Source: Candidatus Zhuqueibacterota bacterium
GTDB lineage: Bacteria > Zhuqueibacterota > Zhuqueibacteria > Oleimicrobiales > Geothermoviventaceae
DNA: 64,000 bases
Assembly (NCBI GenBank): GCA_034506315.1
Contig: JAPDPT010000005.1
Location: forward strand, 36,653 to 100,652
Direction of reading: 5' to 3'
Below, one piece after another: positions 21,790-53,131 of this stretch; positions within the stretch are counted from its first letter, which is position 1, and each line of letters starts with the position of its first letter. The notes under the pieces were generated by a model, which saw only the letters and a program-made list of their open reading frames with translations, searched no databases and was not told the DNA's origin. Made by a program: the position numbers and the translations under genes.

Positions 21790-23589
21790 CTACTTGACCA
21801 CCACCACCCTTTGCGTGAGGAACTCTTCCCCGCCTCGCTCGTCCGCAAAGCGGATGTGGTAGAAGTACGTGCCGCTCGGTACCCGGGGAAGCCACCGAAA
21901 CAGATGTTCACCGGGCTCGATGCGGGGAATCCACTGCCGTTCCACCACTCGGCCCCGGATGTCCAGCACGCTGATCTCCAATTCACCGGGGCTGTAGACC
22001 TCACAGACCAACTTCGCGTCGCCACGAGCGGGGTTGGGATAGCTCGGCAAGATGGAAAAGCCCCGCGGCGCCAGTGCCTGCCCCTCGATCCCGGTGGCGA
22101 TGGGCTCCACTTCCAGACCATTGAGCAGAGCGTAGTCCCTTTCTGCGCCGAAGTGGATGTTCAGTTCCCCGTCGAGAACCGGGGTGACCACCTCGATCGT
22201 CAGGGCGGCGTGATTTCCCACCCTCTGGTAGATGTCCAGATCATCGACCACCAGGCTATCCTCGACATGGATATCGAAGATCCTCTTGCCAGGTTGATCG
22301 AAGTAGTTTTCCGCCAGGTGCAGGCGCAGGCGATAGATCCCGGGGGCGAGGCGAACGTTGTAGCGTGCCAAGCCCCAGCGCTCGCTGCGGTAGATTGGGT
22401 CGAGGTCGGTGCCCGCGATTTCCAGAAGCGGCGATTGGCTGAAGCTGGTCCCCTCCTCGTAGCCGTAGAGGCTCGCCTCGGACCACGGCTGGTCCGCCAG
22501 GAATCCCGCTACCGCGTTCCCTCCCGCATTGATGCGCAGCGGGAAGGAAGGGACCTCCGGAACGGCGACCGAAACGACCTGTCCTTGCAGGGTATTGGGC
22601 GGATCGGCCACGTCCCGGATCCCCGATACAGCCAGGCTGTACGATTGCCCAAGGCGCAAGCTGTCGATGTCCAGCAGGACGGAGCGGCCATCGGGGCGCA
22701 GGTGAGCGGCGTGCACCCGTACCCCCGGGAACACGGCGTAACGGGCGGGATCGGCGGCCGACCTCTCGTCTACCCGCTCCGAAAACTGGACAAGGAGGCG
22801 TCCCCATTCGTAGCGAGCCCAGAGCACCTTGGGCGGGTTTCTGTCCACGTACCCGGTGTGGGTGGGGTCCGTAAGGCAAAGGATCATCAGCCCGTCGCGG
22901 AAGACCGCGTTGTCGGGGGTGAAGTCACAGTTATTGCCGTCCCAGGTATGGGTTGCCTTCTGCCAGCGGCTCTGGTTCCAGGAGTCGAAATCGTCTTTCC
23001 ACTGGAGGGTGAAATTGTTGTCGGTTCCCGTATTGCCCCTGCCGGGCGTGTAGGAAGCATAGCTGACGTAGTCGTAGTAAGCGAAGGCGGGCAGCACCGC
23101 GGGATCCCATTTGCCCGCCCAGTCCACATAAGCAGGCTGCCAGATGTTCATCATGATCTTCTGGGGGCGGTTCAAGGCGAGGACGTGGGTTCCCGTTTGC
23201 CTGTGCACTTCCACCCCGTCCACAAACCACGCCACGTAATGGTCGGTCCACTCAATGGCGTAGACGTGGAAATCGAGGCTCGGATCGAAGGGGACGAACT
23301 GGTGGTGCACGTGATTCAGACGATCGGGGGGAATGATGTTAAACTGCACGTCGTCGGGGTAGCGCCCCAGGATCTCGATGTCGATTTCGTTCCAGCGCGA
23401 GTTGGGGTCCACGTCGTTGTAGGTGAAGAACGAGGACAGCAAACCACTTCCCCAGGCGGCTTTCATCCGCACTTCAAAGCGGCCATAGAGGTAGGATTCG
23501 CGGGTGCGGAGCTCAGCCCCACGATAGTCCTTGGCCCATGTCAGGACTGGGACCAGGCAGGTGGCAACCAGCAACAGACGACGTTCCAT
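21790..23589 (-). CDS. GH16 beta-glucanase (laminarinase/licheninase type) carrying a malectin-like (CBM57-like) domain and a T9SS C-terminal sorting domain
   Basis: The catalytic ExDxE motif is WNEIDIEILG in a GH16 jelly-roll context (GAELRTRESYLYGRFEVRMKAAWGSG). The downstream ...RIFDIHVEDSLVVDDLDIYQRVG is malectin-like. The C-terminus ...GTYFYHIRFADERGGEEFLTQRVVVVK is a T9SS CTD. ATG at 23587-23589 with a GAGGGA RBS. Confidence 0.85.
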   Translation of the reverse strand: MERRLLLVATCLVPVLTWAKDYRGAELRTRESYLYGRFEVRMKAAWGSGLLSSFFTYNDVDPNSRWNEIDIEILGRYPDDVQFNIIPPDRLNHVHHQFVPFDPSLDFHVYAIEWTDHYVAWFVDGVEVHRQTGTHVLALNRPQKIMMNIWQPAYVDWAGKWDPAVLPAFAYYDYVSYASYTPGRGNTGTDNNFTLQWKDDFDSWNQSRWQKATHTWDGNNCDFTPDNAVFRDGLMILCLTDPTHTGYVDRNPPKVLWARYEWGRLLVQFSERVDERSAADPARYAVFPGVRVHAAHLRPDGRSVLLDIDSLRLGQSYSLAVSGIRDVADPPNTLQGQVVSVAVPEVPSFPLRINAGGNAVAGFLADQPWSEASLYGYEEGTSFSQSPLLEIAGTDLDPIYRSERWGLARYNVRLAPGIYRLRLHLAENYFDQPGKRIFDIHVEDSLVVDDLDIYQRVGNHAALTIEVVTPVLDGELNIHFGAERDYALLNGLEVEPIATGIEGQALAPRGFSILPSYPNPARGDAKLVCEVYSPGELEISVLDIRGRVVERQWIPRIEPGEHLFRWLPRVPSGTYFYHIRFADERGGEEFLTQRVVVVK

Positions 23590-23602
23590 GCGGTTCCCTC
23601 AC

Positions 23603-25117
23603 TCACGATCCTTGCATCTTACGGCCGTAATCCAAGCGATCATGGGTCGTCAGGATCGGGAAGGCCGGTACCAGCACCGGGAAGGGGACGTTCTTCTGCA
23701 GCACGAACATGTCGATGCGGGTCAGCTTGATTTTCTCGAAAGCATCGGTGTTGATCTCGATCTGGCCCTGGTACTTCCGCCTGAGCTCCGCGACATAGGG
23801 GTTCAGATACTCCTCGAGCACCGCCATCGTCTGTTTGTAATATTCCCCCTTCTTTCCCACAGATTCCAAATACCTGTTCCGCTGGTAGGTGGCCAGGAGG
23901 TAGTCTTTCCACATGGCCACGTGGCGTTCTACCACATTGACCTGATCGTAACCGCGCCGGTAGGCCTCCTTGGTGACGTAGTAGTCGCGAATGAGGTCGG
24001 CGATCGCCAGCCGGAACTGTTCAGGAAACTCCCTGCGGGTCATCCTTCGCTTGCGAAAGACGAGGGGATGGCGAAGCAGCTCTTTCTCGAACCGCTCCAC
24101 GGTCCACACTTCGCCATCGACCCGGAAAAACGGCCGCTGCCGCAGCGCAGCAATCCGCGCCTCAAAGTCCGGCGACGGAACCAAATCGCTCTTCTTCCCC
24201 CAGAACCTCTCGTTAAAGGCCTCCTCTTTCTCCTCCTGGCTGTGCAAATACAGCGGACGCATCAGGTCGGCCATGGTCGGGAACACTTCGGGGTCAAACT
24301 CCAGGCGCTTGCCCTTCATCACCTTGCGCACGAACGCCCGGTAGCTGTTGGCAGCGTGGCGCAGGCGCACCTGTTTCTCCGCGTCCTCCCATCGCTGCTG
24401 GATCGCCATCTCCCCCGCGATCACCTGATCGATCCAGCCTTGGACACGGATGACGGTCACCGAACCGTCCTCGTTCTCCAGCGGCCCCACCAGTTGGCCC
24501 TTCTTGAGCGGCCGGGTGAACAAGGAATCGAGGACAAGCTCGTCTTCCTCCTGCGACCAGGTAACCTCACGCGTGGGGAGAGGGCCCAGGCCCCCTATCT
24601 CCCGGTGCAGGGAGTCCAGGCTCACACCCTCTGCCAGCCGGCGTCGCAGAAGCGCAATCCGAGCGCTGTCGTCGACGGTCAGGTATTCAACGCGATACTT
24701 CCTCCCGAGCAAGACGTAGGCCTTCTTCAGTTCGGCGCTGTCCACCTTTACCCGACGGTAGAAGTCGTGGTAGAATAACCATTCCCGCATTGCCTGTTCC
24801 CTGCGGCCTGCCAGGTAGGCCTGGAACTGTTCGTTGCGCGTCAGTTCGTTGTCCTCGCCCGCCTCCAAGGCGAGGAGCTTCTCCGCGATCAGGCTATTGA
24901 GAACGATCTTGCGGTGAATGTAGTTGTCGCCCTTGCAGTAGGGTGGCCGGATGGTGTACTCCGCCCTGCGGATGAACTCGTTCACGGAAATGGTCTTCGG
25001 CCCCACACGCGCTAAGATCACCTCTTTAGGCTGTTCCGGACGTCTGGCGCACGCGAGTGTGAGGACTAAGGCAGCCGAAATTGCAACCCACAACCGACCC
25101 CGCACTCCGCTTTTCAC
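23603..25117 (-). CDS. Hypothetical lipoprotein (possible SurA-like chaperone N-domain), function unknown
   Basis: Lipoprotein signal ...AISAALVLTLACA. 504 aa, basic, helix-rich. GTG start at 25117. Sits between the PorV-like gene and GH16. Confidence 0.35.
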   Translation of the reverse strand: MKSGVRGRLWVAISAALVLTLACARRPEQPKEVILARVGPKTISVNEFIRRAEYTIRPPYCKGDNYIHRKIVLNSLIAEKLLALEAGEDNELTRNEQFQAYLAGRREQAMREWLFYHDFYRRVKVDSAELKKAYVLLGRKYRVEYLTVDDSARIALLRRRLAEGVSLDSLHREIGGLGPLPTREVTWSQEEDELVLDSLFTRPLKKGQLVGPLENEDGSVTVIRVQGWIDQVIAGEMAIQQRWEDAEKQVRLRHAANSYRAFVRKVMKGKRLEFDPEVFPTMADLMRPLYLHSQEEKEEAFNERFWGKKSDLVPSPDFEARIAALRQRPFFRVDGEVWTVERFEKELLRHPLVFRKRRMTRREFPEQFRLAIADLIRDYYVTKEAYRRGYDQVNVVERHVAMWKDYLLATYQRNRYLESVGKKGEYYKQTMAVLEEYLNPYVAELRRKYQGQIEINTDAFEKIKLTRIDMFVLQKNVPFPVLVPAFPILTTHDRLDYGRKMQGS

Positions 25118-25189
25118 CTCCCTGAGCGTTTGTCCTGACCCTTACTTCAGGGTGAATCTACCGCTCTTTGCTTTGGAAGACAACCCCAA

Positions 25190-25234
25190 GCTCATACAAA
25201 AGCCCCTACCGCCCGGGCCTGGGAGCGGTAGGGG
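25190..25234 (-). terminator. Putative intrinsic terminator downstream of the PorV-like gene
   Basis: Perfect 10-bp GC-rich inverted repeat CCCCTACCGC / GCGGTAGGGG (25203-25212 and 25225-25234) with a 12-nt loop. On the minus-strand transcript it is followed by GCUUUUGUAU. Confidence 0.5.
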
Positions 25235-25375
25235 CACCTAAGGGAGGGCCTCCGCGAACGCCTCCATCGGTGTTGGGACACTGCGCTTACCGAGTCCTCC
25301 CTCCTCCCTTTGCCCGCTTGGCTCCCCCGACCACCGAAATCTCCTGATGCCCGGATGCGAACCTCAGGCTATCCT

Positions 25376-26449
25376 TCAGAAGAGCACACCGAATGAGTAG
25401 GCGTGAACCCGTCCGAGAATCCCGATGTTCCGATAGGCGTACTCCACGCGCACCGCCGCGTTGTTCATCATCCGCAGGACCATTCCGCCGCCGAAAGAGA
25501 GTCCATACTCGGAGTCCGGCATGAACAGGGCCTTGTACCCAGCCCGCAGGTAGAAGGTGCCCGTACTGGGCAGGGTCACGCGGTACTCCCCACCCACGTT
25601 GACGCTCTCGCTATTGTTGTTGGGGTGAATGGCATCGGCGGCGAGGGTAAGCTCCTGCCTCTCGCTGTAGAACGGTTTCACGGAGAAGCCGATGCGGAAC
25701 AAGAGCGGCAGTTCCCACGACTCCAGGCGGAACTGCCCGGGCACATCTCGATAGTTCCCCTGCTCGTAGGGCAGGATGTCGATCGGCTGAATCAGGTCGA
25801 TGCCGTCGTAGCGCATCTTCGTGCCGTAGTTGGAGATGCTCATCCCAATGGCCATCCCCTGCTCACGGTTGCCGGTGGGCGAAAAGAAGTGTGTCTGGAC
25901 GATCACCCCAAGGTCGAAGGCCAGAGCTGTGGCATGCGTGTGCCAGATCTTCGACGAGACGTATTTTCCGGTCGCTCCGAACCCGAACCATTGGGCCAGT
26001 CTGCGCGCATAGGAGAATCCGATGGCGAGATCGGTGGCACTGTACTTCTCGCCGGTCCCTTCCTGGTACTCGACCGTGGTCACGTCCATGTCCCCGTAGT
26101 CGACCTGGATGAGGTTTAACCCGAGGGTCCCGACGCGCGGAATGACCAATCCAACGGCTGTGAAGGCGGTGTTGATGTCCACCAGCCAGGGCTGGTAGCT
26201 GAATACGACCTCGCTCTGCTCCATGTAGGACATCCCAGCCGGGTTCCAGTAGACGGAGGAGACATCGCGGAGCATGCTCACCGCCGCGTCGCCCATCGCG
26301 GTTCCCGAGGTGCCGTAGCCGATCTCCAGGAAGTTGGCGGTGGTGGTTCCCATCCGGTAGGGTTTCTGCGCTTGCGCCACCCCTGCCAGCATGAAAACCG
26401 CCGCAAGTGGCACCAGCAAAAGCCACGAGCTTTTTCGTGCTCCTTTCAT
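25376..26449 (-). CDS. porV: PorV/PorQ-family type IX secretion outer-membrane beta-barrel protein (PorV-like)
   Basis: The N-terminal block TTTANFLEIGYGTSGTAMGDAAVS...VYWNPAGM matches the L.I..ARs.GMG.A PorV/PorQ signature. Alternating beta-strand pattern with an aromatic C-terminal strand ...HAYSFGVLF. Signal peptide MKGARKSSWLLLVPLAAVFMLAGVAQA from the ATG at 26447-26449. Confidence 0.6.
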   Translation of the reverse strand: MKGARKSSWLLLVPLAAVFMLAGVAQAQKPYRMGTTTANFLEIGYGTSGTAMGDAAVSMLRDVSSVYWNPAGMSYMEQSEVVFSYQPWLVDINTAFTAVGLVIPRVGTLGLNLIQVDYGDMDVTTVEYQEGTGEKYSATDLAIGFSYARRLAQWFGFGATGKYVSSKIWHTHATALAFDLGVIVQTHFFSPTGNREQGMAIGMSISNYGTKMRYDGIDLIQPIDILPYEQGNYRDVPGQFRLESWELPLLFRIGFSVKPFYSERQELTLAADAIHPNNNSESVNVGGEYRVTLPSTGTFYLRAGYKALFMPDSEYGLSFGGGMVLRMMNNAAVRVEYAYRNIGILGRVHAYSFGVLF

Positions 26450-26480
26450 TCCAAGCTCCCTTCCGGCATGATCGTTGGCC

Positions 26481-29400
26481 TCACTTAATGATCGCAAACT
26501 TCCCCATCTTTACGTCCCCCGTGACGTCGGACCGCACGTGGTAGATGTACATGCCCGCGGCCACCTCCAGGCCCTCCTTCGTCTGGAGGTCCCAGTGTAC
26601 GATCCCTTCGTCGCTCGGATTATCGACGTGAATCTCGTCGACGAGCACACCGCTCACCGTGAAGATGCGGATCGTACACTTGGCGGGAATGTGGGTGAAC
26701 ATCAGGCGTCGCCTCTGGCTCTTCTGGTAGCTGGCCACCGAAGGCTCCATCGCGTTGGTCGCCACATAGGGATTTGGCACAACCTTGATCCGCTCCATCG
26801 TCTCCCGCAGACTCTTGCGGTCGAGCCCCTCGCCTTCCCGCACGGTGAAGCGGTAGGCGTCGGTGGTGAAGAACGGACGTACGAAACTCACCCGGTACAC
26901 ATCGTTCGGCTTGGGAAGGTTGGCCGGGTCCCGCACGGGGGCGAAGTCGATGACGAAGACCGTCCCGGCCCAGCGATTATCCGTGGTCAGCGCCCCGACC
27001 AGAACGCGGTCCTCCAGGATGTCGAACTGCCCATTGCGGTTGCGGTCGTGGACCACCAGGTCCATCAACACCGGCTTCCCGTCCGGGCCCCGCACCGAGC
27101 GATTCTCTACGCGGAAGTTGAACCGCTGGCCGGTGAGCAAGACCGTTCGATCCAGCCGTACGCCTCGCTCATCGCGCATGGTCTTGGTCGTCGCCCGGCC
27201 TACGTAGGCGGAATCGTCGCCTGTGAACACGATGTCGTAGTCCCATGGGAAGAGAACCGCCTCACGGGAGGAGGGGATCACGAGGATGGGAGCGGAACCC
27301 TTTACCCAGCCCGAGTGCAGGGCATCGAACTGGGCGGTCAGCACCGGAATCTGAATCCGCAAGCGCAGCCCGTCAAAGATGTCCGACGCGATCTCTTTTC
27401 CGGGCGGGATGTACCAGACGTCGAGGGAATCGTCGTAGGTGATGTTGTTGAAGGCGAAGCGCTCCGGAGACTCCTTGTAGACCAGCCGGTTGCTGTCCGT
27501 CACGTCGTAGACGGCGAATCCCTTATCAAGGTATCGAATCCCATACGGACATCCGGCCACCGTCTCCAGCGTGTCTACCAGGAACCTGACTTCATAGGTG
27601 TGGCCGTACTTGAGATCGCCGCGTGCCAGAATCTCGGGTCTTATCTTGCCCGAGCCCAGGGTTACCCCCGTGGAGTCTGTCGCAAGGCTCGGGGGCTGGT
27701 AGCCCGCAGCCATCTGGTGCGGTACGACAATCTGCACATTCTGCCCGATGCGCCGGATGTTCTCATCCTCGTCCAGTTCGATGACCACGTTGTTTTCCGA
27801 AGGCGCCACCCCCGGCCCGATGTCCGGCGCCCCGTAGTCGTAGGCGACCAGCGCGTAGTAATAGGTCCGACCGTTCTGGACGTTGCGATCGATGAAGTAA
27901 TGCACGATCCCGGTCTCGTTGCCGAGGTAGTAGCCCATCCCGTTGACCAGGCCGTAATTGGTGAAGCCCTCGCGCCCGTCGATCACGTCGCATTGGAAAA
28001 TGGGCTTCTTGAACATGGGGGTGCCGAACCCGTCGGTAATGACCTCCGCGTCAGCCATTTTCTTGTCCGTGGCCCGGAAGAGCTTGTAGCCCTCGAAGTC
28101 GTTGATGTTGCCCATGAAGGGATCGCGCGTCTTGGTGTCCGCCACGTCGTCCCAGGTGAGGATGACGTAGCCATCGCCCGCCGTGGCCCGCAGCGTGGGC
28201 ATCTTCGGCGGCATGGCGAACCGGTAGTCCTTCTCGTAGATGACCTGCGCGATCTGCTTCAGGCGGAAAAGGGCCGGCGCCGAGTGCTCCTCCGAGTTGA
28301 GGCCGGAGAGGGGATCATACGCGTGCAGGAGGGCCATGGAGATCCGCTCCGTGCGCCCCTTGTAGAGCGGGAAAGGACCGGAAGCGAAGGTCTCGATCAG
28401 GTTCGAGATCCGACCCAGATATTCGATCAGGGTGTCCTGACCGAGCACCTCCCACATGGACTTGTCCCCTCGGAACCAGTGGTACTCCGAGGCATGGCTG
28501 GGCACTGGGAACATCATGAACGAGGTGAGGCCGACCATGTCGGACTCGGAAACGTCCGTTTCGGCGAAGTTGGGTTCACAGCCAAGTCCTTCCACATAGT
28601 CCGGCTTATGGTTGCACTCTCCCTCATCCGGACCGTTGTAGTTCAATTCCAGCGGTCCGACGCCGTCCAGCCCCACGTCGTCGCCGGCGTCTTCGCCAGG
28701 CTCGTAGACCCCGTTGCCGTCGGAGTCGTGGCCGTCCTGCCAGTCCTGATCCTCATCGGCGTCCCAATGCGGATGCAGGTCCTCCGGCTTCAACCGATAG
28801 AAGCTCAGGAACGCGTTCAAGTCGGCGATCCCGTCCGTAGGGCCGATGATTCTCTCGGCTTCGTTGTCGCGTTTTTCGTCGATGAGGCCGTCTTCGTCAT
28901 TGTCGATTCCATCGAAGGGCAAACCCGGGCTCTCCAGATAGGCGAACCCCATCACGCCGGTGGGGAATCCCCCTTGGCCGATGCCGTTAATGTCCCAGGA
29001 ATAGGCCATGTCCTGCTTGCGGTCGAAGAAGCCGAGGTCGTCGTCCTCCCCTGCTCCCGGCACCATATCGCCGATGGCGTTGTCGACCCAGTATCCGAAG
29101 GCCACCTGGGGCAGGTCATAGTTGGAGATGTTGGAGATGTTGTATTCCCAGAAGATGGCGTCGCGGGCCTGGGGGTTGTTCCATTGGAAGCCGCGCACTT
29201 CCACCCGGATACCCAGACCACCCCAAGGTTTCCCTTTTTGGATGGTGATCTTGTGGGGTAAGATGTCCCCAATTCGCACACCCGGCCGTGGGTAGTACCT
29301 GACCTTGTCCTCCGGCCCGAGGTACTCCTGATCCTGCGCGTCGTTGGCCACAAAATACGTCTCCAGGTCGGCGTAGATTACACCGCGGCCAAAGCGACCA

Positions 29401-36782: not shown

Positions 36783-36830
36783 CCGTCCCCTACCCGGGCG
36801 TTCCCACTCACGGCCTCGCAACCCTTACGA

Positions 36831-36850
36831 AGGGCAACAAATATGCCGCC
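36831..36850 (-). promoter_or_regulatory. Sigma-54 (-24/-12) promoter-like element for the transporter gene
   Basis: Minus-strand sequence cGGCAT-ATTTG-TTGCc matches the TGGCAC-N5-TTGCW consensus: GG at 36847/36846, GC at 36835/36834, with the exact 10-nt spacing between GG and GC. It lies about 50 nt upstream of the GTG start. Confidence 0.5.
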
Positions 36851-39213: not shown

Positions 39214-39236
39214 CGCCATCCCCTTGCCTTTCAGCC

Positions 39237-42209: not shown

Positions 42210-42219
42210 AGCTCCTGCC

Positions 42220-47824: not shown

Positions 47825-47864
47825 ATTATCGCCATGATAATGGGACGTTATTGTTCTGATAACG
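47825..47864. promoter_or_regulatory. Second pair of ATTATC-N5-GATAAT-type palindromes (candidate UAS), upstream of the GH5 gene and adjacent to the sigma-54 regulator gene
   Basis: ATTATCGCCATGATAAT (47825-47841) is a perfect ATTATC-N5-GATAAT site. CGTTATTGTTCTGATAACG (47846-47864) is a degenerate GTTAT-N7-ATAAC site. Centres are 22 bp apart, identical to the pair at 36912-36950. Confidence 0.5.
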
Positions 47865-48053: not shown

Positions 48054-49514
48054 TTACTTGAGCCCGAGATCGCGGCACATCCGATGGAAGTTCGGTGGTG
48101 CCAGACCGAGCATCCGGGCGGCTTCTGCATCGGAGGAGCAGATCTTTCGCACGTAGCGGAAGTACTCCTCGCGGAAGCGCCTCTCCATTTCGCGCCAGGG
48201 GAGAATCTTCCCGTCGCCCGCGCGCCGTAACCAGTCCTCGATCTCCACCTCTTTGCGAAGCCGGATCTGGAAACCAAGAGCCTCCTCTACGTCCTCCCGG
48301 TCCAGACGCGGCTTCCCGGTCAGGAGAAGCCGCTGTATCACGTTCTGCAACTGGCGCACGTTCCCAGGCCAGGGATAGCCCAGCAGGACTTCCATGGCTG
48401 CCGGGCTCAGCTCCGGCGGGAGGCGGCCCATCTCGTCGCTATACCGCTTGAAATAGTGATCTGCCAAGAGGGGGATGTCCTCCCTTCGTTCGGCAAGGGG
48501 GGGCACGTAGATCGTCAGGACATTGAGGCGGTAGTACAGGTCCTCCCGGAAACGCCCTTCGCTGACCTCGCGCTCCAGATCTCGATTGGTGGCCGCGATC
48601 ACCCGCACGTCAACTTTCACGCGCCGCGTTCGTCCGATCTTGTCGATCTCCCCCTCTTGGATCACACGCAGCAGCGTGGACTGGGTGCTGAGGGGCAGCT
48701 CCGTGATCTCGTCCAGAAAAACGGTGCCCCGATCGGCCAGCTCGAAAAGGCCAGGCTTGTTGGCTTCCGCCCCCGTAAAGGCGCCCTTCTCGTACCCGAA
48801 GAGCTCACTTTCGATGAGGTTCTCCGGCAAGCTCCCGCAGTTTATGGGGAGGAAGTTTTCGAAACGGCGGCGACTGAGGTAATGGATATGAGTCGCCACC
48901 AGCTCCTTACCGGTACCGGAGGCGCCTCGGATCAATACCGTACTGTCGGTTTCAGCACACTGGCGGATCTGCTCGCGCAGGCGCTGAATGGCCGGCGATT
49001 GTCCCACAATGACCCGTTGGGCCAGGATATCCTCGATGCTCTTCTCCAGGCGAGCCGCGGAACGCCGCTTCTCCAGTTCCAGGCGCCTCTTCTCATAGGC
49101 ATTGAAGATGCTCAGAATAAAGTCCGTGGGCTGGTAAATGAAGTCGTCGATGTCGGCGGGGTACTTGGTGCAGTACCAGGTGGCCCCGGCTTCCAGGAGG
49201 CGATTGGCGAATTCGTAGTCGGTCATGTTGATGGTCATCTTGGTCACCACGATGATCTGGAGCGCCGGGTCAATCTCTTTGATGCGGCGGATGAGCGGCT
49301 CTCCCATGAGGCCGCCCGCGATCTGGAAGTCCATGATCACCACGTCGTACGAGCTCGGCGACTTGGCCAATTGCTCCAATGCCAGCCGCCCGTTAGCGAA
49401 CACGTCCACGATCTTGATCCGGTCTGCGAAGGGTTCGAGCGTACGTCGGATGCGGCGCACGTCGAACTCCTCGTCCTCGATCAACATGACCCGGATCGTA
49501 TGGCCCTTGCCCAT
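48054..49514 (-). CDS. Sigma-54-dependent two-component response regulator (NtrC family: receiver - AAA+ - Fis-type HTH)
   Basis: The receiver domain is IRVMLIEDEEFD...VVIMDFQI. The AAA+ sigma-54 activator domain has Walker A GASGTGKE, the GAFTGA sigma-54 contact loop (YEKGAFTGA) and an ESELFGY motif. The C-terminal HTH is AARMLGLAPPNFHRMCRDLGL. ATG at 49512-49514. Confidence 0.9.
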   Translation of the reverse strand: MGKGHTIRVMLIEDEEFDVRRIRRTLEPFADRIKIVDVFANGRLALEQLAKSPSSYDVVIMDFQIAGGLMGEPLIRRIKEIDPALQIIVVTKMTINMTDYEFANRLLEAGATWYCTKYPADIDDFIYQPTDFILSIFNAYEKRRLELEKRRSAARLEKSIEDILAQRVIVGQSPAIQRLREQIRQCAETDSTVLIRGASGTGKELVATHIHYLSRRRFENFLPINCGSLPENLIESELFGYEKGAFTGAEANKPGLFELADRGTVFLDEITELPLSTQSTLLRVIQEGEIDKIGRTRRVKVDVRVIAATNRDLEREVSEGRFREDLYYRLNVLTIYVPPLAERREDIPLLADHYFKRYSDEMGRLPPELSPAAMEVLLGYPWPGNVRQLQNVIQRLLLTGKPRLDREDVEEALGFQIRLRKEVEIEDWLRRAGDGKILPWREMERRFREEYFRYVRKICSSDAEAARMLGLAPPNFHRMCRDLGLK

Positions 49515-49518
49515 GGGC

Positions 49519-51009
49519 TCAGCTCCTGCTCTCATTGGGGATGGTGATCACAAACTGGCAGCCGCGGGAGAGGTTCTCGGCGTCGATCCTCCACCCGCAG
49601 CGCTGCGTGGCAATCTCGTAGGCGATGTAGCAGCCATAGCCGCTCTGATGGGCTGTGGTCTTGGTCGACACGTTCTCCAGGAACAGCCGTTTCACCCCAT
49701 TTTCCTCCAGAAGAAGATCCGGACGGATCCCCACCCCGTTGTCCCCGATGTAAACCTTGGACTCGCCTTTTTCCGGATCGTATACGGTCCGAATGTGTAC
49801 GGTGACCTGCCCATCGCCGGCGTGGTCCAGGCTATTCTGGATCAGCGGCTCAAAAACCTCCCACACGACGAACTCATTGACGTGGACCACAGGCAGATTC
49901 GGGTCCAGGTCCAGCTGGAACTGGTAGTCGCCAAGCGGGGCCGAGACGCGGCGGAAGATGTTGTCCACCAGGAACTGCAAGAGCTCGTTGATGTCCGTTC
50001 GGAACATCGGCCCTCGGATGGCCTGAATTGGCGGGTCGTAGGTCTTCATGTCGTAGATCACGCGGGAGATGAAATTAGCGTACTTGGACACGCGGTACTT
50101 GACCTCCTGGATGTTCTCCACGGACAGGCGCCGGAGATCTTCTTTGATGAAGCCCATGATCTTCTCGGCTTTGTGGTGGGTGTGGTAGATCCGCTTGGCG
50201 AAGAGGGCTTCCTTTTGGTGGTGAATTCGTTCCCGCAGTTGGCGCTCGCGTTCCTCGAAAAGCTGGCGCTGGGCCTCATCCCTCTCCTTGACCGTGTAGG
50301 ACGAGATGTAGAACATGGCAAGCAGGCCAAAGAAAATGAGGCCGGTGAAGATGAGGCTGCTTTCGTTGTAGCTGGAGACGATGCCGCTGGTTACGATCCC
50401 GAAGTCCGGGGCGTACTTCATGTAAAGGGCACCCATCAGCTCGCCCTTCGGGACGAAGGGGACGAAAACGTGGAACGTCCGCGGCGGTTCGACGAGGCTC
50501 CGGATCTGCTCCTGGGAGATGATTTCATCGAAATGCTCACGGTAGAGCTGGAGGGCGCGCGCGTAGGTCGTGTCGTTATCCGCCGGGGGCTCCATTCCCC
50601 AGAAAAGGGTTGCGAACAGCTGCTGCCCGTTGTCCACCGGATGGGCGTTGGCGCCATCGCCCAGAAGCAGGCAGACCTGCTGCACATGGTGCTGGAGCAG
50701 CTGCTCGCTCAGAATGATATTGAAAGCCTGGATGATCTTCTTCGCTTCGTCGTCGCTGACGAAAGGACGGCTCTCAAGGCTCGTCTCCAGAAGCAACTCA
50801 AGGGAAGTTGCGGTGAGATTCGCCAGCTTCTCCGCGAAATCGCGTTGGTACCACTCCTGTGTGTTCACGAGAAACTTCTGCAGGGAGACCTTATGGATAA
50901 ACGACACTAACACCTGGAAGAAGACGAGCACCGAGAGGAGCACCATCAGGTGTTTCAGCTCGAAGTGATAGGGCCTCACCTTATCCATTAACTTCTGCAC
51001 GTACCTCAT
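49519..51009 (-). CDS. Sensor histidine kinase (membrane-anchored, HATPase_c)
   Basis: N-terminal TM segment MVLLSVLVFFQVLVSF. The C-terminal GHKL ATPase stretch is ...LIQNSLDHAGDG...IGDNGVGIRPD...GYGCYIAYEIATQRCGW. Its stop lies 5 nt before the regulator start, so the two are operonic. Confidence 0.75.
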   Translation of the reverse strand: MRYVQKLMDKVRPYHFELKHLMVLLSVLVFFQVLVSFIHKVSLQKFLVNTQEWYQRDFAEKLANLTATSLELLLETSLESRPFVSDDEAKKIIQAFNIILSEQLLQHHVQQVCLLLGDGANAHPVDNGQQLFATLFWGMEPPADNDTTYARALQLYREHFDEIISQEQIRSLVEPPRTFHVFVPFVPKGELMGALYMKYAPDFGIVTSGIVSSYNESSLIFTGLIFFGLLAMFYISSYTVKERDEAQRQLFEERERQLRERIHHQKEALFAKRIYHTHHKAEKIMGFIKEDLRRLSVENIQEVKYRVSKYANFISRVIYDMKTYDPPIQAIRGPMFRTDINELLQFLVDNIFRRVSAPLGDYQFQLDLDPNLPVVHVNEFVVWEVFEPLIQNSLDHAGDGQVTVHIRTVYDPEKGESKVYIGDNGVGIRPDLLLEENGVKRLFLENVSTKTTAHQSGYGCYIAYEIATQRCGWRIDAENLSRGCQFVITIPNESRS

Positions 51010-51021
51010 GGCGGACCCTTC

Positions 51022-52362
51022 CTACTTGAGTACAAACTGGTTGGAAAAAATGGCGGCCTGCGCCTTTTCCAAAGCCTCTGCCACCGACATTTCCCCCCGA
51101 ATGGCCAGGTTTGCGTAATAGGAGAGGATATCCGACACCTGCGTGTAGCGCTCAATGTAGGGGCGGTGCACGCCGTGCTCCATCAGCCTTCGGTACAGGG
51201 ATAGATCTGGGTGCGCCGCGAGGAACGAGGTGTCTGCGTAGATGGACTGCAAGACGGGGATGTACCCGGAGGTTTCGTAGAGGATCTTCTGGTTCTGCTC
51301 TTCAAGGAGGAAACGCACAAAAGTCAGGGCAGCCCTCCCGTTGCGGGAGAATCGCGAGATCATCAGGTTCCATCCGCCGAACACGAAGGCGGGCCGCCCC
51401 CCGGCAAAGTGCGGAAGCGGCGCCAGACCGAAGTTCGACAAGGGAGCGGTCCTTTCAATCTGTTCCCGGTAGTGGAGGAGAAACCCTGGCCAGCCGCGGA
51501 AGAAGATCGCGTTGTGATCCAAGGCGTACATGTAGCTCAGGATCTCGTCGAAGAAGACCACCTTGGGCGGCGTGGCGCGGTAGCGATGGACCAGGTCGGC
51601 GAGGAGCTGCAGGCTGCGCCGGGCCGCGGGCGTATTGACCCGAATCCTCCCCTCGGCATCCACGAGGGAATCCCCCAGGCTCATCACTCCCTCCACGAAA
51701 CTGCAGATGAGCCCCTCGTAGTTGTCCGCCGCGAAGAGGTAGTACGGGCTCGTCTTGGGGCTCCAGCGCTCGAACGCGGCTAAGAATTCTTCCCAGGAGA
51801 TCGAGCGCTGGACCTTCTCCTGGAGCGCCGGCCAGTCCGGAAGTTGTTGCAGGAGGTCCTTGCGGTAGTACATCAGGCCGATGTCCAGGTAGAGGGGCAC
51901 GGCCATCAGCCTTCCCTGGTAGTAGCAGGAGGTCAAAGCATAGGGCAGAAGGCGCGCGCGATCTGCGTGCGTGAAGTAGGCGTCGAGCGGCTCCCCCCAC
52001 TTGGCGAAGCGCGGTACCCAGATGACGTCCACCGAAAACACGTCGATGCGGTCGCTCTTGCTGCGAAGGGCCCGTGCCAGAAGCTCCTTGCGTTCGTTGG
52101 TGCTGAAGCGGGTGAAGGGCAAATGGACCGTAATGACCTGGTAACGATTGCGGTAGCGTTCGTTGAAGCGCCGCACAATCTCCTGGTGGGCAGGGGAAAT
52201 GTTGTCTGCGTAGTAGATTTTCACCACAGGCGGGCGCGCCGGTGAGGTCAGAATCGCCGGACCGACGATAATGGCCAAGATCGCCACCCCAATCACCGCA
52301 AACGTGACCCCCCAGAGCACGCGGCGCCCAAACTTCTCCTCCTGTTGCTCTTCCATGGGCAA
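51022..52362 (-). CDS. Extracellular solute-binding protein (family-1 sugar ABC-type SBP) with no cognate permease; likely a sensor-associated ligand-binding component
   Basis: N-terminal membrane anchor/signal VLWGVTFAVIGVAILAIIVGPAIL. An SBP_bac_1-like body follows (...VDVIWVPRFAKWGEPLDAYF...). TTG start at 52362 with a GGAGGTG RBS. Directly followed by the kinase and regulator genes. Confidence 0.7.
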   Translation of the reverse strand: MPMEEQQEEKFGRRVLWGVTFAVIGVAILAIIVGPAILTSPARPPVVKIYYADNISPAHQEIVRRFNERYRNRYQVITVHLPFTRFSTNERKELLARALRSKSDRIDVFSVDVIWVPRFAKWGEPLDAYFTHADRARLLPYALTSCYYQGRLMAVPLYLDIGLMYYRKDLLQQLPDWPALQEKVQRSISWEEFLAAFERWSPKTSPYYLFAADNYEGLICSFVEGVMSLGDSLVDAEGRIRVNTPAARRSLQLLADLVHRYRATPPKVVFFDEILSYMYALDHNAIFFRGWPGFLLHYREQIERTAPLSNFGLAPLPHFAGGRPAFVFGGWNLMISRFSRNGRAALTFVRFLLEEQNQKILYETSGYIPVLQSIYADTSFLAAHPDLSLYRRLMEHGVHRPYIERYTQVSDILSYYANLAIRGEMSVAEALEKAQAAIFSNQFVLK

Positions 52363-52366
52363 GAGC

Positions 52367-53131
52367 TCACCTCCTGCGGAAAATCTGAACGTGGTCGTAC
52401 AGAGCCTGGGCTGGGAGGTTGCTGTCGTCTCTGGGCCCCGCCCAGGCCACCGATTCCGAATACCAGAGGTTCATCATCACCTGCATCCGCAGATCGGGCA
52501 CGTGCGTCGTGTCCGCCACCTGATGGATCAGCTTTCCGTCGGCGTACCAGCGTACCACCCCCTCCTCCCATTCGATCGAATACTCGTGAAAGTCGGCCGC
52601 GGCATCGAACGGCAGAGCGATGACCTTGGGCCATTGGTGCCCGGCGTCCCCCGCATTGTTCGCAGCGCCCTCAGGCCCCGGATTGTAGTAGATATTCAGG
52701 TGGATCTTGCGTGTATCCTTGCCCAGGAACTCGATGTCGATTTCCTGCCAGGGATTGTACCGGTAGAGGAAAAACGAGCTAACGATCCCGCTCCCCCGCG
52801 CAGCCTTCATCCGCACAGAAAACCTACCGTACAGGTATGAGGAACGCGTCCGAAGCTCCCCGCCGGTGTAGTTCCGGTCCAGGTAGAACTCGGGTCGGAG
52901 CGTGAGGACGAGTTTACCGTCCTGCACTGTGACGTTCTCCGGCTTGAAACGGGCCGCGTTGTACGGGAAGGTGTGAGTGGCTTTCTCCCAGCGCGTTTCG
53001 TTGAGCGTGTCGAAGGGCTCGTCGAGGATGAGTTTCCAGGGCGATGGCTCAGGTGCAGTGGACGATTTCGAACATCCCCACGCAAACAAGACCCACGTGA
53101 TCCAAAGGACCGGCCCCACGCGCTTGCCCAT
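52367..53131 (-). CDS. GH16 beta-glucanase lipoprotein (paralogue of the CTD-bearing GH16 at 21790..23589)
   Basis: Lipobox ...VLFAWGCSKSS. GGELRTRSSYLYGRFSVRMKAARGSG and the catalytic WQEIDIEFLG (ExDxE) are present. 254 aa with no CTD. ATG at 53129-53131 with a GGGAGG RBS. Confidence 0.85.
   Translation of the reverse strand: MGKRVGPVLWITWVLFAWGCSKSSTAPEPSPWKLILDEPFDTLNETRWEKATHTFPYNAARFKPENVTVQDGKLVLTLRPEFYLDRNYTGGELRTRSSYLYGRFSVRMKAARGSGIVSSFFLYRYNPWQEIDIEFLGKDTRKIHLNIYYNPGPEGAANNAGDAGHQWPKVIALPFDAAADFHEYSIEWEEGVVRWYADGKLIHQVADTTHVPDLRMQVMMNLWYSESVAWAGPRDDSNLPAQALYDHVQIFRRR

What the first reader, a model, noticed from the sequence alone, without database searches (positions are those of the whole stretch)
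21790..53131. A 31-kb co-oriented beta-glucan utilisation locus built on T9SS cargo and a TonB receptor: a PUL analogue without SusD
All genes are on one strand with tiny intergenic gaps: GH16 (CTD), the PorV-like barrel, a 1155-aa CTD protein, a TonB-dependent receptor, a CBM9-like binding protein (CTD), a transporter, GH3, a GH5-like enzyme (CTD), GH116 (CTD), GH5 with a CBM6-like module (CTD), the regulatory module and GH16 (lipoprotein). The enzyme set (GH16 endo-beta-1,3(4)-glucanases, GH5, GH116 and GH3 beta-glucosidases) is coherent for laminarin or mixed-linkage glucan. Surface display via the T9SS CTD replaces the lipoprotein SusD/SusE/F logic of Bacteroides polysaccharide utilisation loci. 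A CBM protein immediately upstream of the TonB receptor is a functional SusD analogue.
Basis: partly seen in the sequence, partly recalled or inferred. Interest (0 to 1): 0.75.

Follow-up and report, generated by a model that had tools for sequence, protein, structure and literature searches.

The report
SusD-free beta-glucan uptake locus
A bacterium of candidate division KSB1 carries a 31-kb gene cluster for digesting and importing beta-glucans in which the classic Bacteroides SusC/SusD pair is replaced by a conserved four-gene outer-membrane module, found across three related phyla and absent from the literature I could search.

Summary
Window 21790-53131 carries 15 minus-strand genes whose families converge on beta-glucan: two GH16, GH5+CBM6, GH116, a GH-A-like protein with CBM4, GH3 and a CBM9 protein. 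It also carries a TonB-dependent receptor, a PorV-family barrel and an SBP/kinase/sigma-54 regulator. No SusC-family or SusD-family protein is present.

- One gene was missed, a 504-aa SurA/PrsA-like lipoprotein.
- Four gaps are 137-258 bp, and one holds a strong terminator.
- Both GH16 are lichenase-type (EIDIE motif), which points to mixed-linkage or beta-1,3(4)-glucan rather than laminarin alone.

The main new result is a module: receptor, then the 1155-aa CTD protein, then a PorV-like barrel, usually with the lipoprotein. It was adjacent in 71/71 (receptor) and 71/75 (barrel) evaluable loci from KSB1, Calditrichota and Marinimicrobia. Paralogous copies sit in non-glucan contexts.

The 1155-aa protein has no Pfam family. 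Its model shows a galactose-mutarotase-like sandwich, and its CTD is unusually conserved. It sits where SusD would, so it is a better SusD-analogue candidate than the CBM9 protein.

A conserved palindromic operator and one sigma-54 promoter support co-regulation.

Verdict: a new variant of a known kind. The mechanism is inferred, not shown.

The parts
52367..53131 (-). GH16 endo-beta-1,3-1,4-glucanase (lichenase type), 254 aa. It has a signal peptide with a Cys lipobox (FAWG|C) and no CTD, so it is probably a periplasm-facing or membrane-tethered enzyme.
   Evidence: Pfam GH16 at 2e-36. The best PDB matches are lichenases: 3wvj at 1e-37 and 1byh. Catalytic motif EIDIE at residue 130. N-terminus read.
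51022..52356 (-). Membrane-anchored family-1 solute-binding protein. It is the probable oligosaccharide sensor that partners the kinase.
   Evidence: Pfam SBP_bac_8 at 6e-17 and SBP_bac_1. One N-terminal hydrophobic segment. Conserved with the kinase and regulator in L045, L048 and L052. The start at M3 is inferred.
49519..51009 (-). Sensor histidine kinase with two membrane segments flanking a periplasmic stretch of about 170 aa.
   Evidence: Pfam HATPase_c. Hydrophobic segments at 16-43 and 216-238. Its 3' end overlaps the regulator gene by 17 nt.
48054..49535 (-). NtrC-class response regulator: receiver domain, sigma-54 AAA+ domain and C-terminal HTH.
   Evidence: Pfam Sigma54_activat at 7e-71, Response_reg and AAA_lid_14. 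NCBIfam matches to the NtrC/AtoC/NifA class.
47825..47863 (.). Two tandem 17-bp palindromes, ATTATC-N5-GATAAT and a one-mismatch copy, 22 bp apart. They are the candidate binding sites (upstream activator sequence) of the sigma-54 regulator, ahead of the GH5 operon.
   Evidence: Three perfect matches in 64 kb against 0.29 expected even when 2 mismatches are allowed. The fourth, one-mismatch copy was found. The annotated ATG at 47835 lies inside the palindrome.
45673..47697 (-). GH5 endoglucanase with CBM6 and a T9SS type A CTD. The probable true start is the GTG at 47697, just before the signal peptide.
   Evidence: Pfam Cellulase at 2e-30, CBM_6 at 3e-22, FlgD_ig and Por_Secre_tail. PDB matches for the catalytic domain: CelC 1cec and 9ku5. 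PDB matches for the CBM6: 1uxz, 1w9s and 5fui, which are beta-glucan binders. NEP acid/base motif.
42220..45645 (-). Malectin-like module, GH116 beta-glucosidase and T9SS CTD.
   Evidence: Pfam Glyco_hydr_116N at 5e-71, DUF608 at 4e-65 and Malectin at 2e-27. TIGR04183 at 23.9 bits against a cutoff of 23.
39237..42209 (-). Large CTD protein. It has an N-terminal domain that may be a clan GH-A (GH5-like) glycosidase, a CBM4 module, and about 470 uncharacterised residues.
   Evidence: Pfam CBM_4_9 at 2e-11. The Cellulase hit is only E 5e-4, below threshold. The CBM4 matches Thermotoga Lam16A CBM4-2 (1gui) at 7e-16. ITNEN motif. CTD alignment.
36964..39219 (-). GH3 exo-beta-glucosidase with a signal peptide and no CTD, so it is periplasmic.
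   Evidence: Pfam GH3 N-terminal and C-terminal domains plus Fn3-like. The best NCBIfam matches are exo-beta-1,3/1,6-glucosidase and BglX.
36912..36950 (.). Two perfect tandem palindromes ATTATC-N5-GATAAT, 22 bp apart. They are the candidate upstream activator sequence for the uptake operon.
   Evidence: The same arrangement occurs in the relative L001 at 2987 and 3009. It also lies just after the regulator gene in 9 of 12 regulator-bearing loci from other genomes.
36834..36847 (-). Candidate sigma-54 promoter (-24/-12 element), GGCATATTTGTTGC.
   Evidence: It is the only perfect minus-strand match to GGCAY-N5-TTGC in the window. It lies 65-100 bp downstream of the palindromes. It is conserved as GGTATGTTTGTTGC in L001.
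35394..36821 (-). Polytopic inner-membrane protein, probably a divergent SSF-type sugar symporter. The true start is probably downstream of 36821, because the promoter abuts the listed start.
   Evidence: About 10 hydrophobic segments. No Pfam or NCBIfam hit. 24% identity over 171 aa (pairwise E 7e-7) to the SSF symporter that occupies the same position in L005.
32806..35304 (-). Surface protein with an N-terminal region of about 540 residues that has no database match (an FN3-like stretch seen only by eye), a CBM9 module and a type A CTD. It is a probable accessory glycan-binding protein.
   Evidence: Pfam CBM9_1 at 2e-11 and Por_Secre_tail at 1e-11. TIGR04183 at 51.6 bits. Weak match to Thermotoga Xyn10A CBM9-2, 1i82. 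Present upstream of the receptor in 35 of 51 evaluable loci.
29984..32668 (-). TonB-dependent receptor with an N-terminal carboxypeptidase-regulatory-like domain, a plug and a barrel. It is not a SusC-family member.
   Evidence: Pfam. TIGR04056 at 77 bits against a cutoff of 368, N-terminal part only. Adjacent to the 1155-aa gene family in 71 of 71 evaluable loci.
26481..29948 (-). 'P1155', a 1155-aa secreted protein. In order it has a galactose-mutarotase-like beta-supersandwich with an Asp-rich insert (DxDxDG-type motifs), an FN3 domain, two beta-sandwich domains, and a variant, highly conserved T9SS CTD. It is the proposed surface partner of the receptor.
25376..26449 (-). PorV/PorQ-family (FadL-like) outer-membrane barrel, distinct from both the PorV and the PorQ equivalogs. 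It is the proposed private anchor for the CTD of P1155.
   Evidence: NF033709 at 207 bits against a cutoff of 90. The PorV and PorQ equivalog models score below their cutoffs. F. johnsoniae PorV 6h3i_F at 2e-8. Next to P1155 in 71 of 75 evaluable loci.
25202..25235 (-). Intrinsic-terminator-like hairpin (13-bp stem, 10 GC pairs, T-rich tail) that closes the uptake operon.
   Evidence: The sequence is shown.
23603..25117 (-). 504-aa lipoprotein of SurA/PrsA type (chaperone with a parvulin-like region). It is not SusD-like.
   Evidence: Lipobox LTLAC. A family profile hits B. subtilis PrsA 4wo7 at 6e-5. SurA_N_2 matches 6 of 18 members and Rotamase_2 matches 5 of 18. Present in 43 of 55 evaluable loci.
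21790..23589 (-). GH16 lichenase of the circularly permuted Fibrobacter type, with a malectin-like module and a T9SS CTD.
   Evidence: Pfam GH16 at 1e-29 and Malectin at 2e-20. PDB 3axd and 1mve at 1e-53 to 1e-54. EIDIE at residue 68. TIGR04183 at 24.1 bits against a cutoff of 23.

Best explanation
This is a beta-glucan capture, degradation and import system of a candidate division KSB1 bacterium. It works like a Bacteroidota polysaccharide utilisation locus but uses different outer-membrane parts.

Proposed sequence of events:
1. Enzymes and binders with a T9SS C-terminal domain are exported to the cell surface or the medium. These are the permuted GH16 lichenase, GH5+CBM6, malectin+GH116, the GH-A-like CBM4 protein and the CBM9 protein. 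There they cut mixed-linkage and beta-1,3(4)-glucans into oligosaccharides.
2. The oligosaccharides are taken up by a non-SusC TonB-dependent receptor. This receptor works with the 1155-aa protein encoded directly after it.
3. That protein is exported by the T9SS and keeps its unusually conserved CTD. It is held at the surface by the private PorV/PorQ-family barrel encoded next to it, as PorZ is held by PorQ and PorU by PorV. It presents a galactose-mutarotase-like sugar-binding sandwich to the receptor, so it does the job SusD does.
4. A SurA/PrsA-like lipoprotein assists assembly of the module in the periplasm.
5. In the periplasm, GH3 and the small GH16 lipoprotein finish degradation. A divergent SSF-like symporter moves the sugars into the cell.
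6. A membrane-anchored solute-binding protein senses the oligosaccharides. It signals through a histidine kinase to a sigma-54 activator. The activator binds paired ATTATC-N5-GATAAT sites upstream of the enzyme operon and the uptake operon.

Shown here: the gene content, the family assignments, the synteny, the motif conservation and the fold prediction.

Inferred: the topology, the CTD retention, the P1155-barrel and P1155-receptor contacts, sugar binding by P1155, the regulator-operator pairing and the actual substrate.
For: Enzyme families converge on beta-glucan:
- Both GH16 are closest to lichenases and carry EIDIE.
- The GH5 resembles CelC. Its CBM6 and the CBM4 resemble modules of known beta-glucan-binding families.
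- GH3 and GH116 are beta-glucosidases.

There is no SusC or SusD.

Six proteins share a type A CTD.

The module is conserved:
- P1155 is 63-70% identical across three phyla.
- The receptor is adjacent in 71 of 71 evaluable loci, the PorV-like barrel in 71 of 75 and the lipoprotein in 43 of 55. The order receptor, P1155, barrel occurs in 59 of 78 loci.
- Gene spacing is tight, 3-49 nt in most relatives.
- Paralogous modules sit in other nutrient contexts, and some loci have tandem P1155 copies.

P1155 features:
- The CTDs of P1155 and the CBM9 protein are more conserved than the rest of each protein (68 against 58% and 49 against 42%). The enzyme CTDs are much less conserved than the rest (23-25 against 46%).

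Precedents and partners:
- PorV-family barrels anchor PorU and PorZ, and the FadL-family barrel BamG binds the lipoprotein BamH (PMC5562754; PMC12611786).
- The lipoprotein is PrsA/SurA-like.

Regulation:
- Perfect palindromes occur only in the two regulatory gaps.
- A sigma-54 -24/-12 element lies downstream of one pair.
- Both features are conserved in a relative.
- The palindrome lies just after the regulator gene in 9 of 12 other loci that carry the regulator.
Against: - No experiment supports any step.
- T9SS core genes could not be looked for, because only 64 kb of this genome is available.
- P1155 does not reach the TIGR04183 CTD model. Its CTD call rests on a weak PorZ-tail hit (21 bits), an alignment and the model.
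- Foldseek TM-scores to PorZ and PorU are very low (0.07-0.12), so that resemblance is confined to small domains.
- The mutarotase-like fold also occurs in enzymes and in YidC, so sugar binding is not proven.
- High CTD conservation could reflect something other than retention.
- No convincing -24/-12 element was found upstream of the GH5 operon.
- In this genome the lipoprotein gene is separated from the module by a terminator.
- The counts of 'evaluable' loci automatically include positive cases and are therefore slightly optimistic.
Confidence: 0.6

Rival explanations
1. The CBM9-CTD protein upstream of the receptor is the SusD-like partner that hands glycan to the receptor. P1155 and the PorV-like barrel are only further cargo and general secretion parts.
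For: The CBM9 module is a recognised carbohydrate-binding family, with a weak match to Thermotoga CBM9-2. The gene lies directly upstream of the receptor in many loci. Its CTD is also somewhat better conserved than the rest of the protein.
Against: It is present in only 35 of 51 evaluable loci and is absent from the paralogous modules, whereas P1155 is always there. A 137-bp gap separates it from the receptor in this window, against 35 bp between the receptor and P1155. A general secretion PorV would not be expected to be encoded next to P1155 in 71 of 75 loci.
Confidence: 0.18
2. The receptor, P1155, barrel and lipoprotein module is an export or attachment device rather than an importer. In this reading the Oar-like TonB-dependent transporter, or a private PorZ/PorQ-like attachment complex, secretes or anchors the CTD enzymes of the locus.
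For: The receptor has the carboxypeptidase-regulatory N-terminal domain that is also seen in Oar-type transporters. Relatives hit PF25183. Myxococcus Oar is required for protein secretion (PMC6434023, listed). The best Foldseek hits for P1155 are PorZ and PorU. A chaperone-like lipoprotein is part of the module.
Against: The module is embedded between periplasmic exo-glucosidases, an inner-membrane symporter and a sugar-sensing regulator, which fits import. The PorZ and PorU matches have TM-scores near 0.1. P1155 lacks the PorZ propellers and the PorU protease domain, and its largest domain is a sugar-binding-type sandwich. Paralogous modules lack CTD enzymes nearby.
Confidence: 0.12
3. P1155 is itself an enzyme acting on the glycan at the surface, for example a new glycoside hydrolase, a lyase or an epimerase-like activity. 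It would not be a passive binding partner.
Confidence: 0.08
4. The cluster is a chance neighbourhood of unrelated genes on a mostly one-stranded chromosome region.
For: Almost the whole window is minus-strand. There are several long gaps and a terminator.
Against: Synteny is conserved across phyla. The operator motif is confined to the locus. The enzyme set is coherent.
Confidence: 0.02

Closest known systems
Bacteroidota SusC/SusD polysaccharide utilisation loci, especially the mixed-linkage-glucan and beta-1,3-glucan loci of Bacteroides (PMC7157763 and PMC7974029, listed)
   Same: It has the same logic. There are surface endo-glucanases (GH16), surface glycan-binding proteins, a TonB-dependent importer, a periplasmic GH3, and a dedicated sensor/regulator. 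All are clustered and apparently co-regulated.
   Different: The receptor is not SusC-family and there is no SusD lipoprotein. Surface display is by T9SS CTD rather than by lipidation. The gene in the SusD position is a 130-kDa CTD protein paired with its own PorV-like barrel. The regulator is an SBP plus kinase plus sigma-54 activator, rather than a hybrid two-component system or SusR.
T9SS attachment complex pairs PorU-PorV and PorZ-PorQ of Porphyromonas gingivalis (PMC5562754). From my own knowledge, also SprB-SprF of Flavobacterium.
   Same: A CTD-bearing surface protein is encoded next to, and presumably held by, a 14-strand PorV/FadL-family barrel. The P1155 CTD is conserved, as expected for a retained docking domain.
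   Different: P1155 has no propeller or sortase domain, and the barrel fails both the PorV and the PorQ equivalog models. The pair is tied to a TonB-dependent receptor and to nutrient loci, not to the secretion machinery. It occurs in several paralogous copies per genome.
CUT loci (carbohydrate utilisation loci containing TonB-dependent receptors) of Xanthomonas and other Proteobacteria. This comparison is from my own knowledge (Blanvillain et al. 2007) and was not retrieved here.
   Same: They are SusD-free clusters that combine a TonB-dependent receptor, glycoside hydrolases, an inner-membrane sugar transporter and a regulator.
   Different: CUT loci have no T9SS cargo, no PorV-like barrel and no P1155-type partner.
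Fibrobacter succinogenes 1,3-1,4-beta-glucanase (PDB 1mve, 1zm1, 3axd)
   Same: The 599-aa GH16 shares the circularly permuted lichenase catalytic domain (E 1e-53 to 1e-54) and the EIDIE motif.
   Different: Here the domain is fused to a malectin-like module and a T9SS CTD.
SAR406/Marinimicrobia CAZyme inventories (PMC5596340) and the Jermuk-LamM GH16 laminarinase (PMC12296878)
   Same: [quoted passage not shown]
   Different: Those papers list components. Neither describes the receptor, P1155, PorV-like barrel and lipoprotein module, or its regulation.

Membership tests
Bacteroidota PUL (SusC/SusD type) | SusC/RagA-family TonB-dependent transporter (TIGR04056) | tested here: not met
   TIGR04056 scored 77 bits against a cutoff of 368, and only residues 29-230 matched.
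Bacteroidota PUL (SusC/SusD type) | SusD-family lipoprotein encoded next to the transporter | tested here: not met
   No SusD Pfam family hit any ORF of the locus. The unknown proteins were scanned to E<=10. The only lipoprotein of SusD size is PrsA/SurA-like.
Bacteroidota PUL (SusC/SusD type) | Clustered CAZymes aimed at one glycan, plus a dedicated regulator | tested here: met
   Two GH16, GH5, GH116, GH3, and CBM4, CBM6 and CBM9 modules, with SBP, kinase and sigma-54 regulator.
T9SS type A CTD cargo | C-terminal sorting domain matching TIGR04183 or PF18962 | tested here: met
   Above the cutoff of 23 bits: CBM9 protein 51.6, GH16 24.1 and GH116 23.9. Just below it: GH5+CBM6 22.4 (FlgD_ig 31.8 bits) and the CBM4 protein 20.4. 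All align with the shared motifs. For P1155 the result is inconclusive: there is only a PorZ-tail hit at 21 bits, plus the alignment and the model.
T9SS type A CTD cargo | T9SS core machinery (SprA/Sov, PorK/L/M/N, PorU) present in the same genome | not testable with these tools
   Only a 64-kb window is available. The window holds eight CTD proteins and one PorV-family gene, but no core component.
PorV/PorQ family (FadL-like barrel) | Match to the family model NF033709 | tested here: met
   207 bits against a cutoff of 90, full length. F. johnsoniae PorV 6h3i_F at E 2e-8.
PorV/PorQ family (FadL-like barrel) | Orthology to PorV or PorQ proper (equivalog models) | tested here: not met
   PorV scored 96 bits against 250, PorQ 84 against 220 and PorV2 54 against 325. 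It is a separate subfamily.
GH16 lichenase (1,3-1,4-beta-glucanase) group | ExDxE catalytic motif without the beta-bulge residue, and closest solved relatives are lichenases | tested here: met
   EIDIE is present in both proteins. The best PDB hits are lichenases, with laminarinases 20 or more orders of magnitude weaker. The BglS equivalog cutoff is not reached (162 and 168 bits against 300), so specificity is inferred.
NtrC-class sigma-54 two-component regulation | Receiver domain, sigma-54 AAA+ domain and HTH activator, with a -24/-12 promoter and upstream palindromic sites | tested here: met
   Domains. GGCATATTTGTTGC at 36847-36834. Paired 17-bp palindromes, conserved in relatives. No clear -24/-12 element was found before the GH5 operon. 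Binding was not tested.
SurA/PrsA/PpiD chaperone family | SurA-like N-terminal chaperone region with a parvulin-type domain | tested here: inconclusive
   A family profile hits PrsA 4wo7 at E 6e-5 across the parvulin region. SurA_N_2 matches 6 of 18 members and Rotamase_2 matches 5 of 18, all below the curated cutoffs. The window protein alone gives no hit.
GH5 / clan GH-A (997-aa protein) | Significant match to a GH5 model and conserved acid/base and nucleophile residues | tested here: inconclusive
   Pfam Cellulase gave E 5e-4 at 20 bits against a cutoff of 23.5, over 88 residues only. An NE motif is present. No PDB match was found to the N-terminal domain.

The most novel reading that the evidence does not exclude
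The receptor, P1155, PorV-like barrel and SurA-like lipoprotein set may be a phylum-spanning class of TonB-dependent nutrient importer that I did not find described in the searchable literature. It occurs in KSB1, Calditrichota and Marinimicrobia/Fidelibacterota, and in some MAGs labelled Ignavibacteria or Bacteroidota. In it, a T9SS-exported protein keeps its CTD and is docked on a private PorV-family barrel, where it plays the part that the SusD lipoprotein plays in Bacteroidota. Paralogous copies and tandem P1155 arrays would tune the module to different substrates.
Probability: 0.35. Interest if true: 0.85.

Novelty: new variant of a known kind. Interest (0 to 1): 0.7.

Why it matters
KSB1, Calditrichota and Marinimicrobia (SAR406) are abundant in sediments, hot springs and the dark ocean. 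How they take up polysaccharide is largely unknown.

If the module works as proposed, three things follow:
- It gives a marker gene set for glycan uptake in these phyla. PUL predictors that rely on SusC/SusD pairs cannot detect this gene set.
- It extends the role of T9SS CTDs and PorV-family barrels from secretion to building nutrient receptors.
- It defines a protein family with thousands of members and no Pfam model.

It also names testable parts in a cultured organism, the Caldithrix abyssi Calab_3088 locus.

Tried and rejected
- SusD identity for the 504-aa lipoprotein. I considered it because of the protein's size and lipobox. I rejected it because the family profile hits PrsA and SurA instead.
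- Strict sigma-54 consensus scan (TGGCAC-N5-TTGCW with 2 mismatches). It gave fewer hits than chance and nothing useful. A wrongly spaced pattern gave nothing. The relaxed, correctly spaced pattern found one good site.
- First AF2 model of P1155, from 25 close homologues. It was poor (pLDDT 53), so its fold matches were not used beyond noting PorZ and PorU.
- PDB sequence and profile searches with P1155 found nothing.
- The afdb50 fold library was unavailable.
- Exact look-ups of the window protein and of Calab_3088 in the contig index failed.
- Literature searches for a description of the module in Caldithrix, Melioribacter, KSB1 or Marinimicrobia found none. One query was spoiled because 'susc' matched 'susceptible'.
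- The PorZ-tail hit on P1155's CTD is not evidence of special kinship, because the GH5 CTD hits the PorZ and PorU tails equally well.

Full report
**1. Source and observation**

The window's 1155-aa protein is 100% identical to GenBank MDZ7372830.1 (ONB23_02575), from a MAG of candidate division KSB1. G+C is about 62%.

Between 21790 and 53131 there are 15 minus-strand genes. In the direction of transcription, Pfam and NCBIfam give:
- GH16 with a lipobox.
- A membrane-anchored solute-binding protein.
- A histidine kinase.
- A sigma-54 response regulator.
- GH5+CBM6+CTD.
- Malectin+GH116+CTD.
- A 997-aa CBM4+CTD protein with a sub-threshold GH5 hit.
- GH3.
- A polytopic membrane protein with no family.
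- A CBM9+CTD protein.
- A TonB-dependent receptor.
- A 1155-aa protein with no family ('P1155').
- A PorV/PorQ-family barrel.
- A 504-aa lipoprotein with no family.
- GH16+malectin+CTD.

The flanks are unrelated. RND and ABC efflux genes lie upstream. DHDPS-like, Rce1-like and GH106 genes lie downstream.

Four intergenic gaps are 137-258 bp. The gap after the PorV-like gene holds a strong terminator-like hairpin. Because almost the whole window is minus-strand, co-orientation by itself says little.

Several listed ORF starts are too far upstream, judging from where the signal peptides begin. The refined starts are given in the parts list and are inferred.

**2. Substrate**

Both GH16 enzymes are closest to solved 1,3-1,4-beta-glucanases:
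- The 254-aa protein matches the Bacillus/Clostridium type (E 1e-37).
- The 599-aa protein matches the naturally circularly permuted Fibrobacter succinogenes enzyme (E 1e-54).
- For the 254-aa protein, laminarinases score about 20 orders of magnitude worse; none appears among the matches of the 599-aa protein.
- Both have the EIDIE motif without the extra residue of laminarinase-type GH16. That this motif is diagnostic is established GH16 knowledge.

The other enzymes fit the same substrate class:
- The GH5 resembles C. thermocellum CelC. Its CBM6 resembles Cellvibrio CBM6, BH0236 CBM6 and the ZgLamC CBM6.
- The CBM4 of the 997-aa protein resembles Thermotoga Lam16A CBM4-2.
- GH3 scores best against exo-beta-1,3/1,6-glucosidase and BglX models.

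The family calls therefore do converge on beta-glucan. The emphasis is on mixed-linkage or beta-1,3(4) linkages rather than laminarin alone.

**3. No SusC or SusD**

The receptor matches the SusC/RagA model only over its N-terminal 200 residues (77 bits against a cutoff of 368). No SusD family hit any ORF.

The 504-aa lipoprotein has the size of SusD, but it is PrsA/SurA-like. A profile of 18 family members hits B. subtilis PrsA (E 6e-5). Individual members hit SurA_N_2 and Rotamase_2.

**4. A conserved module**

P1155 has 2064 or more homologues in the word-indexed search. The best 120 are all 62-91% identical, all but the closest three at 70% or less. The hits that carry a name come from KSB1, Calditrichota (including Caldithrix abyssi Calab_3088) and Marinimicrobia. 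An exhaustive search of cluster representatives finds 3748 at E<=1e-3 and 425 at E<=1e-30.

Context in five loci with precomputed annotation shows the string CBM9-CTD, receptor, P1155, PorV-like, roughly 500-aa protein. It is surrounded by GH16, GH5(+CBM6), GH3, GH9, an SSF symporter and, in one Marinimicrobia genome, the same kinase and sigma-54 regulator.

A scan of one genome per species gave 276 confirmed relatives, of which 78 loci were kept. I searched their ORFs with the window's proteins and counted neighbours:

| Neighbour of P1155 | Loci with it / evaluable loci |
|---|---|
| Receptor | 71 / 71 |
| PorV-like barrel | 71 / 75 |
| Lipoprotein | 43 / 55 |
| CBM9 protein upstream | 35 / 51 |
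| Beta-glucan-type GH within 10 kb | 18 / 31 |

The order receptor, P1155, barrel occurs in 59 loci, and receptor, barrel, P1155 in 7. The denominators include any locus where the gene was seen, so they lean slightly towards the positive.

Several genomes carry two or three such loci at 50-65% identity. Some have three or more P1155 genes in tandem (L042, L047, L057, L059).

Two paralogous loci have no beta-glucanases. L082 has LacI, a hybrid sugar-binding kinase/AraC regulator, a C-type-lectin protein and a CTD protein. L079 has creatininase, an enolase-superfamily enzyme and an amino-acid permease.

The triad therefore looks like a general uptake platform. The window holds its beta-glucan version.

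**5. What P1155 is**

It has no Pfam, NCBIfam or PDB sequence match.

A first model from 25 close homologues was poor. A second model, from 61 sequences that included the paralogous clade, reached pLDDT 76 and pTM 0.64.

- dextran dextrinase and glucoamylase (GH15);
- cellobiose, cellodextrin and laminaribiose phosphorylases (GH94);
- TxGH116, GH65, GH149 and GH161;
- aldose 1-epimerases and the YidC periplasmic domain.

The sequence carries Asp-rich DxDxDG-type motifs in a low-confidence insert (residues 340-475). It then has an FN3-like domain, two beta-sandwiches and a C-terminal beta-sandwich. That last domain aligns with the other CTDs, but with a roughly 20-residue insert after the PNPY motif.

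**6. CTD conservation**

Across orthologues I compared identity in the last 75 residues with identity in the rest of each protein:

| Protein | Last 75 residues | Rest of protein |
|---|---|---|
| P1155 | 68% | 58% |
| CBM9 protein | 49% | 42% |
| GH16 (599 aa) | 23% | 46% |
| GH5+CBM6 | 25% | 46% |

This is what one expects if enzyme CTDs are disposable export tags, while the CTDs of P1155 and perhaps the CBM9 protein have a lasting job.

The known precedent is that PorU and PorZ are held on the surface through PorV and PorQ (PMC5562754). The FadL-family barrel BamG likewise binds the surface lipoprotein BamH (PMC12611786).

The barrel here belongs to the PorV/PorQ family but fails the PorV, PorQ and PorV2 equivalog models. 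It matches F. johnsoniae PorV at 2e-8.

**7. Regulation**

The 17-bp palindrome ATTATC-N5-GATAAT occurs perfectly three times in 64 kb, against 0.29 expected even when 2 mismatches are allowed:
- Two copies lie 22 bp apart in the gap before the membrane-protein, CBM9 and receptor operon.
- One copy, plus a one-mismatch copy 22 bp away, lies before the GH5 operon.

A -24/-12-type element, GGCATATTTGTTGC, lies 65-100 bp downstream of the first pair. It is the only perfect minus-strand match in the window.

The closest relative keeps both the paired palindromes and the promoter.

In 9 of 12 other loci that carry the regulator, mostly labelled Marinimicrobia (Neomarinimicrobiota) or unclassified, a TTATC-N5-GATAA site lies in the gap just downstream of the regulator gene. 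In eight of them it is within about 100 nt of the regulator's stop codon; in L080 a pair of sites lies immediately upstream of the CBM9 gene. Background density is about 0.13 sites per kb.

This supports, but does not prove, co-regulation of the enzyme and uptake operons by the SBP, kinase and sigma-54 system. I found no clear -24/-12 element before the GH5 operon and no operator before the GH16-SBP-kinase-regulator unit or the lipoprotein-GH16 unit.

**8. Transporter**

The 475-aa ORF has about ten hydrophobic segments and no family hit. It aligns weakly (24% over 171 aa, pairwise E 7e-7) with the SSF symporter that occupies the same place in a Marinimicrobia locus. 'Transporter' is plausible but weakly supported. 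Its start is uncertain because the promoter abuts the listed start codon.

**9. Mechanism and confidence**

The general statement is that this is a SusC/SusD-free beta-glucan utilisation locus using CTD cargo and a TonB-dependent receptor. I hold it at about 0.85.

The specific mechanism is that P1155 is docked by a retained CTD on its private PorV-like barrel and serves the receptor as a glycan-binding partner, with a SurA/PrsA-like helper. I hold that at about 0.45.

The rivals are listed separately with their evidence:
- The CBM9 protein is the SusD analogue.
- The module is an export or attachment device.
- P1155 is an enzyme.

**10. Comparison and novelty**

It works like a Bacteroidota PUL and like proteobacterial CUT loci, but it fails the two defining membership features of the former (SusC and SusD).

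The anchoring idea borrows from the T9SS attachment complex.

The components have been noticed before in SAR406 genomes: GH16 linked to 'Por C-terminal sorting domain' proteins, CBM9 and GH5/CBM6 (PMC5596340). A related GH16 has been characterised (PMC12296878).

I found no description of the four-gene module, of the P1155 family or of the operator in the searchable library. That library lacks most subscription journals, so prior description cannot be excluded.

I rate the finding a new variant of a known kind, with interest 0.7.

Noticed in passing
window 9260-10987 (-): A 575-aa ORF matches the methanol:cobalamin methyltransferase B subunit family (MtaB) at E 5e-149. This is unexpected in a KSB1 bacterium. 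Its listed 5' end overlaps the neighbouring M1 peptidase ORF by about 290 nt.
   Followed up: no
window 54017-58882 (-): A single 1621-aa ORF joins an AcrB-type RND pump (residues 47-1072) and an ABC ATPase domain (residues 1345-1489) in one frame. It could be a real fusion, a missed stop or frameshift, or simply stop-free sequence in a GC-rich genome. An overlapping 480-aa ORF (53286-54728) has membrane segments and may be the ABC permease.
   Followed up: no
window 10695-12683 (-) and 1147-3093 (-): Two further proteins with T9SS-type CTDs lie outside the locus: an M1 peptidase with Por_Secre_tail, and a 648-aa protein with a FlgD_ig tail. CTD cargo is therefore dense in this genome, with eight examples in 64 kb.
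   Followed up: partly
L042, L047, L057, L059 (loci): These loci hold three or more P1155 paralogues in tandem next to one receptor and one PorV-like barrel. The arrangement recalls the multiple SusD/E/F-like binders found in some PULs.
   Followed up: partly
L082:3700-6519 and L082:14664-15515: A paralogous module is preceded by a hybrid regulator (periplasmic sugar-binding domain, kinase, receiver and AraC HTH). It also has an extra 284-aa C-type-lectin-like gene between the PorV-like barrel and the lipoprotein. A similar small gene sits at the same place in L079, L076 and L068.
   Followed up: partly
window 16414-21546 (-); L001:18484-23434: A GH106 alpha-L-rhamnosidase, an Rce1-like CAAX protease and a DHDPS-family protein follow the locus. 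They are syntenic in the 91%-identical relative. They do not seem to belong to the beta-glucan system.
   Followed up: no
L003:6995 (Caldithrix abyssi): An ATTATC-N5-aATAAT site lies in the gap between the CBM9 gene and the receptor gene. The regulator encoded nearby is LacI-type, and no sigma-54 activator is seen within the locus.
   Followed up: no
L064 (record labelled Methanobacteriota archaeon), L044 and L061 (labelled Lentisphaeria), L007 and L011 (labelled Cytophagia): Full modules with 58-67% identical P1155 occur on contigs whose MAG labels lie outside KSB1, Calditrichota and Marinimicrobia. This probably reflects binning or label errors rather than real distribution.
   Followed up: no
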